Assembly: GCA_902761535.1 (NCBI GenBank)
Contig: CACWKS010000002.1
Coordinates: 270,611-334,610, forward strand
Length of the DNA stretch: 64,000 nucleotides
Direction: 5' to 3'
DNA from: an uncultured Pseudomonadota bacterium
GTDB taxonomy: Bacteria > Pseudomonadota > Alphaproteobacteria > RF32 > CAG-239
In this document: positions 40,221 to 42,101 of the stretch, in pieces
Numbering within the stretch: the first letter of the stretch is position 1
Layout: the number at the start of each line of letters is the position of its first letter
The notes under the pieces: model-generated
The model's input: only the letters and a program-made list of their open reading frames with translations
Databases searched by the model: none
What the model was told of the DNA's origin: nothing
Made by a program: the position numbers and the translations under genes

Positions 40221-40778
40221 ATGAACACAGAAAAGCACGCGCTAATTGCCCAAGTCATCGAAGCGATGGGTATAACCGATCGAGATGAAAAAATCAAACT
40301 GGTTAAAGCTCTGATTGCCCAATGGAGCTTGGATTATTTCTCCGAAATCAGGAGGGAACAACCGGCGCAAAAGCCTAAAACTCCGACCGGCTTTGAGGTT
40401 ATACCCCCCTCAACGAGCTATTCACTTTCCTATGCCAAATATAAGGGAAGAGTGATCGGAGTGGTGTTTTGCCTGGATGGCCGTCACTTCATTTTCAGCC
40501 ATAAAAATGCTGAAGATGTAATAACGCTTCAAACGGCAAAAAATAATTTGAATCAAGGAAAATACGACTATGTGGGAGGGAACCCCTGGCAAATTCCCAC
40601 GATTGAAATGTTCCTAGAGGTCAATCGAAATTTAAATAAATTCAATTGTACCATGGAGAAATTGGCAAATTGTGGAGCTGGTAAGATAGTCAAAAAAATA
40701 TATCTTGACGCTTCCATGAAAAATTACAACCAAGTCGGCATCCTCCGCCTTGCCATGTGGGCACCATGGCTCGACTAA
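40221..40778 (+). CDS. hypothetical protein, paralog family member A (185 aa)
   Basis: N-terminal helical region and D(Y)xGGN motif shared with 41538..42101; GC-richer (45-50%); shared 16-nt upstream motif aaatgaaattattaat. Confidence 0.5.
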   Translation: MNTEKHALIAQVIEAMGITDRDEKIKLVKALIAQWSLDYFSEIRREQPAQKPKTPTGFEVIPPSTSYSLSYAKYKGRVIGVVFCLDGRHFIFSHKNAEDVITLQTAKNNLNQGKYDYVGGNPWQIPTIEMFLEVNRNLNKFNCTMEKLANCGAGKIVKKIYLDASMKNYNQVGILRLAMWAPWLD

Positions 40779-40815
40779 AACAAAAGCCTCAACTTCGGTT
40801 GAGGCTTATTTTTTT
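40779..40815. terminator. rho-independent terminator, bidirectional (gcctcaac-ttcg-gttgaggc)
   Basis: perfect 8-bp stem with tetraloop, A/T runs both sides; between convergent genes. Confidence 0.65.
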
Positions 40816-40822
40816 ATAATCA

Positions 40823-41374
40823 TTACTCCTCCCCTGTTTCCAAAGTTATGTATTTTGCCGGAATAATTCCGTCTTTTAACACTAAAAAATAATGTTTAAT
40901 TGTTGTCCACGGCGAAAGATTATTATATTGATCTTGCTCGCACAAATGCCAATCGTTGGATGTTAAATCAATCTCGCTTAAATTATTTATTTTATAAATA
41001 TTTTCTAAACTTGCATCTTGCAGAGCACTTTGACGATTATCTTTGCAATAAATTTCCTCCACAATTCCGTCTTTTAGCAATTGTTCCAAATCAAACGAAA
41101 TTACTTTGGCATTATGAACCAAATAATTTAAATAAGGATGCTTATATTCTTCCATCGGAGCAACATCAGTTATCACACAAATTGAGCGCATCCGGCCCGT
41201 AAAAGTATTTTCCAAATAAGCCTCTATATCTTCTAACTTTTCCGATTTTGCACTGCTTTTATGTGTCAATAAAGCAACTTTATAATGCTCACTTTTCTTA
41301 TCAAACATTGACAGCGATTTATATCCCTCTTTTTTAATTTGTTCATAAGCATAGGTATATAAATAAACTTTCAT
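40823..41374 (-). CDS. hypothetical protein (183 aa)
   Basis: ORF between the two paralogs on opposite strand; no family recognised. Confidence 0.45.
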   Translation of the reverse strand: MKVYLYTYAYEQIKKEGYKSLSMFDKKSEHYKVALLTHKSSAKSEKLEDIEAYLENTFTGRMRSICVITDVAPMEEYKHPYLNYLVHNAKVISFDLEQLLKDGIVEEIYCKDNRQSALQDASLENIYKINNLSEIDLTSNDWHLCEQDQYNNLSPWTTIKHYFLVLKDGIIPAKYITLETGEE

Positions 41375-41537
41375 TTTTTCTCTCCGTTATTCTACCATAT
41401 TATCAACTGATCAACTAAAAGCAATATCTTTTCTTTCTTAAAACAGATTAACCGCGAATAAATATTGACAAAAGCTATTTACCTGTTAAAAAGAAAATCA
41501 AATGAAATTATTAATTACTTAAATTAAATCAATTATT

Positions 41538-42101
41538 ATGAAAGAAAAAGCAATTACCAAACTCTTTATCCAAATGATGCAACATAAGGATAAAGCTGGT
41601 CGCATTGAGGTGTTTCTTCGTCTCTTGGGAATATTAGGGATAAAACAAGCAGATCTCTATCATCCTAAAACCGAATCAGAAACCCAACCACCGACCGAAT
41701 TGTCGGATGAATTTGATCTTCTTATCCGGACAAAAAAGGGAGAATTGCGGCGCGTTCCGTTTTCTCAACGGAATTTGGGAAAACCAGTTGGAATTTTTCC
41801 GATTAACGGCTCCCCGATGTATCTCGAGTTAGACGAGGTTGCAGACAAATGCCCCAACGATAAGGATGTTGACATTTTCCGTCTGCCTGAGGTAGACGAG
41901 CTGGAGCGAATTGACATTGCCAAAATCAATCCTTATTTGCAGGCACTCGACAAACCCACCTTAGAAGGATGTTACTTGGCTGAAAATTCGAAGTATATGC
42001 ACCAGTGCGGCTGGATATATAACTTCGACAATCAAGGTAGTGATTACTACGGAGGAAATGAGCCGAGCAAACTCCGTTACGCGGGGTATTTCTATGACTA
42101 A
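41538..42101 (+). CDS. hypothetical protein, paralog family member B (187 aa)
   Basis: see 40221..40778; followed by terminator. Confidence 0.5.
   Translation: MKEKAITKLFIQMMQHKDKAGRIEVFLRLLGILGIKQADLYHPKTESETQPPTELSDEFDLLIRTKKGELRRVPFSQRNLGKPVGIFPINGSPMYLELDEVADKCPNDKDVDIFRLPEVDELERIDIAKINPYLQALDKPTLEGCYLAENSKYMHQCGWIYNFDNQGSDYYGGNEPSKLRYAGYFYD

What the first reader, a model, noticed from the sequence alone, without database searches (positions are those of the whole stretch)
40221..42101. Duplicated about 185-aa protein family with a conserved upstream motif flanking an opposite-strand ORF
ORFs 40221-40778 and 41538-42101 share N-terminal helical similarity (A(I/L)..L..IQ.M...D.....I....LL) and a D-Y-x-G-G-N motif. 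Both have GC near 45-50%, well above the roughly 36% of the surrounding core. Both are preceded about 35 nt upstream by an identical 16-mer (aaatgaaattattaat), so the duplication includes the regulatory region. Between them lies an opposite-strand 183-aa ORF of unknown function. This looks like a horizontally acquired, expanding family, for example toxins/effectors with an immunity gene between them. The function is unknown.
Basis: seen in the sequence. Interest (0 to 1): 0.6.

Follow-up and report, generated by a model that had tools for sequence, protein, structure and literature searches.

The report
Shared promoter-leader, swappable small-protein genes
Two small orphan genes in a rumen alphaproteobacterium share a promoter, leader and probably a short N-terminal module but have undetectably related bodies; the first is the fixed partner of a large PcfJ/LRR protein, and neither has a known function.

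Summary
All three ORFs are real, and the identical 16-mer is part of a roughly 85-nt duplicated promoter/leader unit that chance does not explain.

The "duplicated 185-aa family" does not survive alignment statistics:
- BLASTP between the two proteins gives E=0.1, and a profile-profile comparison gives 0.6% probability.
- The D-Y-x-G-G-N motif is out of register and is not conserved within ORF1's own family.
- GC is 43%, not 45-50%.

A "bridge" protein from a related genome has an ORF2-type N-terminus (E=5e-18) and an ORF1-type C-domain (E=4e-32). The two genes therefore share a 5' unit (promoter, leader box AATTATTAA, two-helix N-module) placed in front of different C-domains.

- **ORF1:** its family sits directly downstream of a PcfJ-domain/LRR protein in 10 of 11 informative loci, including members only about 25% identical. 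Between strains 98% identical in DNA, its C-domain core is replaced by an unalignable allele.
- **Middle ORF:** it is a widely conserved lineage gene (79+ homologs), found elsewhere without these neighbours and absent from some syntenic loci. It is not an immunity gene.
- **Known families:** no toxin, defence, DGR, phage or plasmid match was found.

Function is unknown. My best guess is co-regulated modular partner proteins of the PcfJ-LRR protein.

The parts
37923..40151 (+). Large partner gene, 742 aa. It has an N-terminal coiled-coil region, a PcfJ-like domain (aa 193-307, conserved HHCVGSY) and a C-terminal LRR-like repeat region.
   Evidence: Pfam PcfJ scores 45.8 bits against a cut-off of 25. 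Orthologs are 31-64% identical over their full length. LRR_EndoS and LRR_4 score above their cut-offs in the ortholog L005; in the window protein only a sub-threshold FNIP hit was found. dN/dS is 0.31-0.34.
39208..40035 (+). Hypervariable segment inside the LRR-like region of the PcfJ gene.
   Evidence: Not alignable by blastn to L001 or L135, while the flanks are 91-96% identical. Protein identity is 27-60% here against 85-97% in the N-terminal 400 aa. dS is 1.57 against 0.13.
40144..40220 (+). Promoter/leader unit, copy 1. -35 TTGACA at 40148-40153, overlapping the PcfJ stop codon TGA at 40149-40151. A 17-nt spacer ends in TGT. -10-like TATTGC at 40171-40176. 16-mer at 40184-40199 containing the invariant box AATTATTAA. 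Then an A/T-only leader without a Shine-Dalgarno sequence.
   Evidence: Sequence, composite pattern, alignments across loci, model hit at E=1e-17, no SD-like motif. The promoter assignment is an inference from consensus; the transcription start has not been mapped.
40221..40778 (+). ORF1, 185 aa, the small partner protein. N-terminal two-helix module (about aa 1-40), a P/Q-rich linker, an alpha/beta C-domain, and an invariant C-terminal tail LRLAMWAPWLD.
   Evidence: Six close and 13 remote homologs. Directly downstream of a PcfJ gene in 10 of 11 informative loci. AlphaFold model with pLDDT 67 and pTM 0.61. dN/dS is 0.36.
40379..40739 (+). Swappable C-domain core of ORF1 (an allelic cassette).
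   Evidence: Not alignable between the window and L001. L135 and L001 are 98.3% identical over 4.6 kb but unalignable exactly here, and L135 carries the window-type allele at 92% aa identity. dS is 1.5 and dN/dS 0.37.
40784..40807 (.). Bidirectional intrinsic terminator between ORF1 and the middle ORF.
   Evidence: 10-bp stem with T-runs on both strands.
40823..41374 (-). Middle ORF, 183 aa. A conserved lineage hypothetical protein that is not part of the system.
   Evidence: 79+ homologs at 50-77% identity. Different gene context elsewhere. Absent in L135 and L002-4. dS is 0.06, like or below the flanks. It has its own SD. No Pfam or PDB match.
41461..41537 (+). Promoter/leader unit, copy 2. 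TTGACA at 41465-41470, a 16-nt spacer ending in TGT, TAAAAA at 41487-41492, the 16-mer at 41500-41515, then an A/T-only leader.
   Evidence: E=6e-15. Conserved upstream of the ORF2 orthologs.
41538..42101 (+). ORF2, 187 aa. Its N-module is of the type seen in the bridge protein. Its C-domain has no detectable relatives.
   Evidence: Only three clusters among 5.8 billion, always in this locus. N-terminus versus bridge gives E=5e-18. dN/dS is 0.22 and dS 0.62. The AlphaFold model is poor, pLDDT 40.
42107..42141 (+). Terminator-like hairpin after ORF2.
   Evidence: 35-nt inverted repeat with 91% complementarity, followed by TTTTTGTT.
4845..4929 (+). Possible third, diverged copy of the promoter/leader unit, upstream of an unrelated 154-aa membrane protein gene (4922-5386).
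   Evidence: Model R1 scores 13.8 bits, E=0.0042, covering model positions 6-83. It is the only non-training hit below E=0.05 in the window. Sequence. Weak evidence, because the model's E-values are rough.

Best explanation
The locus is not a toxin pair with an immunity gene between.

SHOWN.
- ORF1 is the small partner gene of a conserved two-gene cassette, a large PcfJ-domain/LRR protein followed by a small modular protein. All homologs found come from rumen, gut and other metagenome assemblies, and the few that carry a name are labelled Alphaproteobacteria.
- ORF2 is a locus-specific second gene built on the same 5' unit as ORF1. That unit comprises a sigma-70-like promoter (TTGACA, 16-17 nt, TGn-TAnnnn), an A/U-rich leader without a Shine-Dalgarno sequence that carries the invariant box AATTATTAA about 20 nt before the ATG, and probably a two-helix N-terminal module. 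ORF2 joins this unit to a C-terminal domain with no detectable relationship to ORF1's.
- The family evolves by swapping C-domains behind a constant 5' unit. The evidence is a mosaic bridge protein, and replacement of ORF1's C-domain core between strains that are 98% identical.
- The middle ORF is an unrelated conserved gene.

INFERRED.
- Both small genes are switched by the same trans-acting factor acting on the box. That factor could be an operator-binding repressor, or a regulator of leader translation.
- The constant N-module is the part that docks to a common partner, most simply the PcfJ-LRR protein.
- The swappable C-domain supplies strain-specific recognition. ORF1's C-domain may have an Lcl_C/DUF1566-like ligand-binding fold.

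The biochemical activity is unknown.
For: Shared unit. The box AATTATTAA is invariant in 9 of 9 leaders, including L136 and L138, whose proteins are only about 25-33% identical to ORF1.

PcfJ linkage: the window, L001, L002, L135, L005, L141, L129, L138-140, L142 and L143 all have a PcfJ gene directly upstream on the same strand, with unrelated outer flanks.

Mosaic bridge protein. N-module profile similarity. Same predicted helices.

Cassette swapping and deep allelic divergence under purifying selection.

Each small gene is monocistronic, with its own promoter-like site and terminator.

Middle ORF unrelated.

Lcl_C lead: P0010 residues 113-155, covering the WRIPT..F motif, hit Pfam Lcl_C at E=0.0045.

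A possible third copy of the unit in front of an unrelated gene suggests a regulon rather than mere gene duplication.
Against: - No experiment, transcription start or interaction data exist.
- The -10-like hexamers are poor (TATTGC, TAAAAA), and the box itself contains TATTAA, which could instead be a -10 element.
- Direct ORF1-ORF2 homology is not significant for the C-domains, and is only profile-level for a 27-residue helix. Column shuffling may overstate that, because any amphipathic helix beats a shuffled one.
- The LRR type and the ORF1 C-domain type do not co-vary. L135 has the L001-type LRR with the window-type ORF1. This weakens any model of specific pairing between those two variable parts.
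- ORF2 has never been seen next to a PcfJ gene of its own.
- The Lcl_C hit is below the gathering score (17.7 bits against 34.9) and occurs in one member only.
- Foldseek against the PDB and BFVD found nothing.
- L136 carries a family member without an upstream PcfJ gene.
Confidence: 0.5

Rival explanations
1. Toxin-immunity reading centred on PcfJ. The PcfJ-LRR protein is a toxic or effector protein, ORF1 is its cognate immunity or antitoxin protein expressed from its own promoter, and ORF2 is an orphan immunity paralog kept under the same control.
For: - A small gene lies immediately downstream of the large gene in 10 loci.
- It has its own promoter and is monocistronic.
- Its alleles are hypervariable and deeply diverged under purifying selection.
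- It has few homologs.
- It has no signal peptide.
Against: - The variable part of the large protein (the LRR) and the ORF1 C-domain do not co-vary.
- The PcfJ domain itself is conserved at 85-97% identity.
- No toxin, antitoxin or defence model matches.
- No secretion-system genes were seen in the window.
Confidence: 0.15
2. Autoregulation. The conserved N-module is a small DNA- or RNA-binding domain that binds the near-palindromic box (ATTAnTAAT) in its own leader. That would explain why box and N-module travel together, as with antitoxins that repress their own promoters.
For: - Box and N-module are conserved together across the family.
- The box contains the inverted repeat ATTA-T-TAAT.
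- Weak N-terminal hits to the H-NS_N and UBA_2 helical domains.
Against: - The box is identical in ORF1 and ORF2, yet their N-modules are barely similar, and the conserved residues are hydrophobic or glycine.
- The third copy precedes a gene without the N-module.
- The Pfam hits are all below threshold.
Confidence: 0.12
3. Exported effectors or adhesins. The leader plus N-terminal module forms an export signal, for example for the flagellar type III apparatus, and the variable C-domains are lectin-like cargo acting outside the cell.
For: - The architecture is a constant N-terminus with a variable C-terminus.
- In L005, L006, L141 and L129 the cassette adjoins flagellar hook or rod genes.
- The Lcl_C lead.
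- Faint FlgK_D1 and HrpB7 hits at the N-terminus of the PcfJ proteins.
Against: - No flagellar or secretion genes lie near the cassette in the window, L138 or L142.
- All of these domain hits are below threshold.
- There is no signal peptide and no known secretion motif.
Confidence: 0.1
4. ORF1 and ORF2 are paralogous toxins or effectors of one horizontally acquired, expanding family, and the ORF between them is their immunity gene.
For: - The shared 5' unit.
- Elevated third-position GC.
- A tRNA-Glu gene at 42551-42626 next to the locus.
Against: - The C-domains are not detectably related.
- The middle ORF is a widely conserved gene with other contexts, and is absent from syntenic loci.
- No toxin domain was found.
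- No phage or plasmid relatives were found.
- Only one ORF1-family and one ORF2-family gene were found in 64 kb.
Confidence: 0.04
5. Unrelated genes sharing only a regulon signature. ORF2 has nothing to do with the PcfJ cassette, the promoter/leader is a common control element of several genes, and the N-terminal resemblance is convergence of two amphipathic helices.
For: - A possible third copy lies upstream of an unrelated membrane protein gene.
- There is no pairwise N-terminal similarity.
- The C-domains are unrelated.
Against: - The bridge protein, a PcfJ partner, has an N-terminus 56% identical to ORF2's (E=5e-18).
- The DNA similarity of the two units runs 12-14 nt into the coding sequence.
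- The profile test gives 0 of 300 shuffles.
Confidence: 0.09

Closest known systems
PcfJ-like protein family (Pfam PF14284; PcfJ of Enterococcus faecalis plasmid pCF10)
   Same: The upstream large protein carries this domain above the Pfam threshold, including the conserved H-C-V motif (HHCVGSY).
   Different: PcfJ itself is uncharacterised. The literature searches found no functional study. Here the domain is chromosomal, fused to a coiled coil and LRR repeats, and always followed by the small partner gene. No plasmid homolog was found.
Polymorphic toxin / contact-dependent inhibition loci (constant N-terminal region, swappable C-terminal cassette, orphan modules). This comparison rests on my own knowledge.
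   Same: The evolutionary pattern is the same. A constant 5' part is joined to unalignable C-terminal alleles between near-identical strains. There is a mosaic protein, and a second copy of the 5' unit carries a different C-domain.
   Different: The proteins are small (155-245 aa). They have no known toxin or trafficking domain and no downstream immunity gene, and no secretion system is nearby.
Lcl C-terminal domain / DUF1566 (Pfam PF07603), including the short DUF1566-only target proteins of diversity-generating retroelements (PMC5758913)
   Same: One family member has a sub-threshold hit over the W-R-I-P-T..F motif. The proteins are small, with a variable C-terminal region. By eye, ORF2's FRLPEVDEL ... 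CYLAENS ... WIYNFDNQG ... KLRYAG resembles the DUF1566 consensus as I recall it; this was not tested.
   Different: The hit is below the gathering score (17.7 bits against 34.9) and seen in only 1 of 24 sequences scanned. No PDB sequence or fold match was found. There is no reverse transcriptase and no template repeat in the window.
Reverse-order toxin-antitoxin modules such as higBA and mqsRA, where the second gene has its own promoter and an operator. This comparison rests on my own knowledge.
   Same: A small second gene with its own promoter, and a near-palindromic conserved box close to the likely transcription start.
   Different: The first gene encodes 742-1031 aa. No toxin or antitoxin family matched. 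DNA binding has not been tested.

Membership tests
One paralogous protein family (ORF1 and ORF2) | Statistically significant similarity over the bulk of the proteins | tested here: not met
   BLASTP E=0.1. hhalign gives 0.6% probability. For the C-domains, hhalign gives E=0.2 and 41 of 200 shuffles reach the score.
One paralogous protein family (ORF1 and ORF2) | Shared N-terminal module | tested here: inconclusive
   No pairwise hit. Profile E=0.0026 with 0 of 300 shuffles when the bridge protein is included, and 2 of 200 without it. The bridge protein links an ORF2-type N-terminus to an ORF1-type C-domain. The predicted helices are the same.
Toxin-immunity pair with the middle ORF as immunity gene | The immunity gene co-occurs with, and is specific to, the toxin genes | tested here: not met
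   The middle ORF has 79+ homologs in other contexts. It is absent in L135 and L002-4, which keep ORF1 and ORF2.
Polymorphic toxins | A recognisable toxin or trafficking domain | tested here: not met
   No Pfam, NCBIfam or PHROG hit for ORF1 or ORF2.
Known anti-phage defence systems (PADLOC-DB 2.0) | A match to a defence protein model | tested here: not met
   No hit for ORF1, ORF2, the middle ORF or PcfJ-LRR.
Lcl_C / DUF1566 (PF07603) | A score at or above the Pfam gathering threshold | tested here: not met
   The best hit is 17.7 bits against 34.9, in one remote member (P0010) only. ORF1 and ORF2 themselves have no hit.
Lcl_C / DUF1566 (PF07603) | C-type-lectin-like fold | tested here: inconclusive
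Diversity-generating retroelement target | A reverse transcriptase and a template repeat matching the variable region | tested here: not met
   No repeat of any part of 40100-42150 occurs elsewhere in the window except the promoter unit. No RT-like ORF was found; this was a coarse check, a [YF][ALVIM]DD motif search in ORFs of at least 200 aa.
PcfJ-like family (for the neighbouring large gene) | Pfam PF14284 at or above the gathering score | tested here: met
   45.8 bits against 25. The orthologs score 40-53 bits.
Leucine-rich repeat proteins (for the neighbouring large gene) | An LRR model at or above the gathering score | tested here: inconclusive
   In the window protein only FNIP at E=0.084. 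The ortholog L005 passes LRR_EndoS (35.1 against 27.9) and LRR_4 (30.2 against 27).
Rfam cis-regulatory RNA (for the leader) | A match to a curated family, or a conserved secondary structure | tested here: not met
   No relevant Rfam hit. RNAalifold predicts 0 pairs.
Mobile element cargo (phage or plasmid) | Homologs in phage or plasmid records | tested here: not met
   tblastn of ORF1 and ORF2 against phages and plasmids, and of PcfJ-LRR against plasmids, found no match.

The most novel reading that the evidence does not exclude
The PcfJ-LRR gene plus its small partner, with ORF2 as a spare module, form a previously undescribed strain-specificity system of gut and rumen Alphaproteobacteria. 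It could be a new anti-phage or self/non-self recognition system. A conserved enzyme-like PcfJ core would be paired with two independently swappable recognition parts: the LRR region, and the C-domain of a small adaptor. A portable promoter/leader/N-module unit would serve as the platform on which new C-domains are installed and co-regulated.
Probability: 0.15. Interest if true: 0.7.

Novelty: new variant of a known kind. Interest (0 to 1): 0.4.

Why it matters
PcfJ is a widespread domain of conjugative plasmids and phages with no known function. A strictly conserved small partner gene gives a concrete handle for studying it, through co-expression, binding and toxicity tests.

The locus also shows modular gene evolution in an uncultured gut lineage. 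A promoter, a leader box and a short N-terminal module are kept constant, while the rest of the protein is exchanged between strains that are otherwise 98% identical.

The invariant 9-nt box in front of start codons without a Shine-Dalgarno sequence is a candidate control element for a regulator that has not been identified.

If the system turns out to be a recognition or defence module, the finding would matter more. As it stands, it is an uncharacterised but well-delimited gene family.

Tried and rejected
- **Direct paralogy.** Rejected on statistics.
- **D-Y-x-G-G-N as a family motif.** Rejected: it is out of register and not conserved.
- **Middle ORF as an immunity gene.** Rejected.
- **DGR target.** The idea came from the Lcl_C lead and from PMC5758913. 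No template repeat or RT was found.
- **Leader peptide.** The 16-mer contains ATG AAA TTA TTA, which opens a 12-codon uORF overlapping the ORF1 start. The ATG is lost in the L001 and L002 ORF2 leaders and in L129, and the uORF length varies, so it is not conserved.
- **CtrA box (TTAA-N7-TTAA) and CcrM sites.** Reading the sequences, the spacing is wrong and the sites are not conserved.
- **Conserved RNA structure or an Rfam family in the leader.** None found.
- **Genome-wide regulon via a genome contigs pattern scan.** Only L100, which is the same contig as L001, was real. This wasted the single scan.
- **Co-variation of LRR type with ORF1 C-domain type.** Tested as a sign of a cognate pair, and not found.
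- **PDB sequence searches.** Searches with the ORF1 and ORF2 profiles, PcfJ-LRR and the middle ORF gave nothing meaningful.
- **Literature on PcfJ.** No functional information was found.
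Full report
**Observation**

The three ORFs exist as described: ORF1 at 40221-40778 (+), a middle ORF at 40823-41374 (-), and ORF2 at 41538-42101 (+). Each small + strand gene is monocistronic.
- A bidirectional terminator lies at 40784-40807.
- A 35-nt hairpin followed by a T-run lies at 42107-42141.

The identical 16-mer is real, at 40184-40199 and 41500-41515. It is only the core of a longer duplicated unit.
- 40143-40234 matches 41460-41548 at 73% over 94 nt (E=1.4e-6).
- The composite TTGACA-N28-38-AAATRAAATTATTAA occurs twice against 0.00 expected.

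The compositional claim is overstated.
- GC is 0.428 and 0.433 against a mean of 0.380 (sd 0.037) over the window's ORFs, and 6 of 53 ORFs are as high.
- Third-position GC (0.468 and 0.452) is at the top of the window.

**Are ORF1 and ORF2 paralogs?**

Not by ordinary criteria.
- BLASTP gives E=0.1, and the only match is NQG.DYxGGN at residues 111-121 versus 165-174.
- ORF1 has six close relatives and ORF2 three among 5.8 billion clusters.
- hhalign of the two families gives 0.6% probability.
- Within the ORF1 family the supposed motif is not conserved.

An exhaustive profile search with the ORF1 family found 19 proteins, and none is ORF2-like. With the enlarged 21-sequence family, the C-domains still do not match:
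- hhalign gives E=0.2;
- 41 of 200 column shuffles reach the real score.

One hit, P0011, changes the picture.
- Read from its true start (L129:4250-4828, 193 aa), its first 46 residues are 56% identical to ORF2's N-terminus (E=5e-18).
- Its C-domain matches ORF1 at E=4e-32, but matches ORF2's C-domain only at E=1.9.
- It also carries the TTGACA ... GAAATTATTAAT unit upstream.

With this bridge protein in the ORF2-type N-terminal profile, the second helix and linker align to the ORF1-type N-modules at E=0.0026, and 0 of 300 shuffles reach that score. Without it, 2 of 200 do. AlphaFold predicts the same two N-terminal helices in both proteins.

I conclude that the two genes share a 5' unit, consisting of promoter, leader and probably the N-module, but not a detectable C-domain. 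Collinear micro-motifs do exist: W.IPT and FRLPE, kfN and kiN, YLDAS and CYLAENS, LRLAMW and LRYAGY. They are not statistically supported.

**What ORF1 is**

Its family is encoded directly downstream, on the same strand, of a large PcfJ-domain protein in ten loci: the window, L001, L002, L135, L005, L141, L129, L138-140, L142 and L143. These include members only 22-25% identical to ORF1, and their outer flanking genes are unrelated.

Three loci depart from the pattern.
- L136 has no upstream PcfJ gene.
- L006 has a fusion of the PcfJ N-terminus to an ORF1-type C-domain.
- L144 is too short to tell.

The large proteins are orthologous over their full length, at 31-64% identity. Each has a coiled-coil N-terminus, a PcfJ domain (45.8 bits against a cut-off of 25) and C-terminal leucine-rich repeats. 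The repeats pass the Pfam threshold in L005. This is a conserved two-gene cassette.

Nothing functional is published on PcfJ in the library searched.

The samples that can be identified are rumen metagenomes. One relative is named "uncultured Alphaproteobacteria bacterium".

**Cassette swapping**

Compared with L001, the window is 94-96% identical in the flanks. Two segments are unalignable: 39208-40035 (the LRR region) and 40379-40739 (the ORF1 C-domain core).

L135 and L001 are 98.3% identical over 4.6 kb, yet unalignable exactly at the ORF1 C-domain core. There L135 carries the window-type allele at 92% aa identity, while its LRR is L001-type. The two variable parts therefore recombine independently. 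This argues against a tightly co-evolving cognate pair.

| Segment | dS | dN/dS |
|---|---|---|
| ORF1 C-domain core | 1.5 | 0.37 |
| PcfJ C-terminal (LRR) region | 1.57 | 0.34 |
| ORF2 | 0.62 | 0.22 |
| Flanking genes | 0.10-0.13 | 0.18-0.31 |

These are old alleles under purifying selection, not decaying sequence.

**The promoter/leader unit**

Across orthologs and remote members the unit has the following parts.
- TTGACA, which in copy 1 overlaps the PcfJ stop codon.
- A 16-17 nt spacer ending in TGy.
- A TAnnnn hexamer.
- About 7 nt further on, the box.
- Then 18-23 A/T-only nucleotides, with no Shine-Dalgarno sequence, up to ATTATGA.

AATTATTAA is invariant in 9 of 9 aligned leaders, including L136 and L138. 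About half of the other ORFs in the window have an SD-like motif.

No RNA structure and no Rfam family fits. The small uORF that starts in the 16-mer is not conserved.

A sequence-only model finds a third, weaker copy at 4845-4929 (E=0.0042), in front of an unrelated 154-aa membrane protein gene. This hints at a shared trans-acting regulator.

It is not settled whether the box is an operator, a leader element or a second -10 (TATTAA).

**The middle ORF**

- It has 79+ homologs at 50-77% identity in Alphaproteobacteria MAGs.
- In L130-134 it lies after a GNAT gene and is translationally coupled to a HIT hydrolase gene, with no PcfJ, ORF1 or ORF2 nearby.
- It is present in the window and L001 but absent in L135 and L002-4, which have a short pyrophosphatase-like gene instead.
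- Its dS is 0.06.

It is not an immunity gene for its neighbours.

**Known systems tested and not met**

- Pfam, NCBIfam, PHROGs and PADLOC give no hit for either small protein.
- Sequence searches of the PDB find nothing.
- Foldseek with the ORF1 model (pLDDT 67) finds nothing in the PDB or BFVD.
- There is no DGR.
- There are no phage or plasmid relatives.
- The only lead is a sub-threshold Lcl_C/DUF1566 hit on one member, over the W-R-I-P-T motif.

**Mechanism**

Shown:
- a conserved PcfJ-LRR plus small-partner cassette;
- a duplicated promoter/leader unit;
- mosaic joining of N-module types to C-domain types;
- allelic replacement of C-domains.

Inferred:
- The two small genes are co-regulated through the box.
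- The constant N-module docks to a common partner, most simply the PcfJ-LRR protein.
- The exchangeable C-domain gives strain-specific recognition.

Rivals, with my estimates:

| Rival | Estimate |
|---|---|
| PcfJ toxin with ORF1 as immunity protein and ORF2 as orphan immunity protein | 0.15 |
| Autoregulation by the N-module | 0.12 |
| Exported effectors | 0.10 |
| Unrelated genes sharing only a regulon signature | 0.09 |

**Verdict**

The finding is an uncharacterised, well-delimited modular gene family tied to the uncharacterised PcfJ domain. It is of moderate interest, and no function is demonstrated.

Noticed in passing
L006:416-1153 (protein P0006, 245 aa): A natural fusion. The first roughly 125 residues match the N-terminus of the PcfJ-LRR protein, and the last roughly 120 match the ORF1-family C-domain. 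It looks as if an in-frame deletion removed most of the PcfJ gene, the promoter unit and the N-module. The contig ends 415 nt upstream.
   Followed up: partly
window 4845-4929 and 4922-5386: A third, diverged copy of the promoter/leader unit (TTGACA ... AAATGAATTATTAAC ... ATTATG; model E=0.0042). It precedes an unrelated 154-aa predicted multi-pass membrane protein with no Pfam match.
   Followed up: partly
window 40149-40153: The TGA stop codon of the PcfJ-LRR gene lies inside the TTGACA -35-like hexamer of the ORF1 promoter unit. The same arrangement is conserved in L001, L002, L135, L005 and L129.
   Followed up: partly
L001:4999-5352 and L135:7594-7950 (minus strand): A 117-118-aa gene matches only the central part of the inorganic pyrophosphatase profile (E about 1e-10), so it is a truncated or minimal version. 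It occupies the slot between ORF1 and ORF2. The window lacks it, L001 has it together with the middle ORF, and L135 and L002-4 have it alone. The slot is therefore a presence/absence polymorphism.
   Followed up: partly
window 1-64000: GC skew is negative in every 1-kb bin (-0.04 to -0.41), and nearly all long ORFs are on the minus strand. The PcfJ gene, ORF1 and ORF2 are among the few + strand genes.
   Followed up: no
window 22194-26828 (minus strand): A 1544-aa ORF with no Pfam family at E<=0.001.
   Followed up: no
window 42177-42251 (minus strand) and 42551-42626: A 24-codon ORF (MRKLGWILFVGAILFGTACRAEYD) with a GGAGG Shine-Dalgarno sequence resembles a bare signal or lipoprotein-like peptide. 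It lies between ORF2 and a tRNA-Glu(CTC) gene that borders the locus.
   Followed up: no
window 40221-40370 versus L001: The first 50 codons of ORF1 differ from L001 by 8 amino acids with no synonymous change (dN 0.08, dS 0). The sample is too small to be significant. L135 has a differently mosaic N-terminus that matches L002 in the first 20 residues.
   Followed up: partly
L005, L006, L141 (downstream) and L129 (upstream): In the more distant relatives the PcfJ/small-partner cassette adjoins flagellar hook- or rod-like genes (a FlgE-like 403-aa gene, a Flg_bb_rod gene). No flagellar gene was found among the window ORFs that were scanned.
   Followed up: partly
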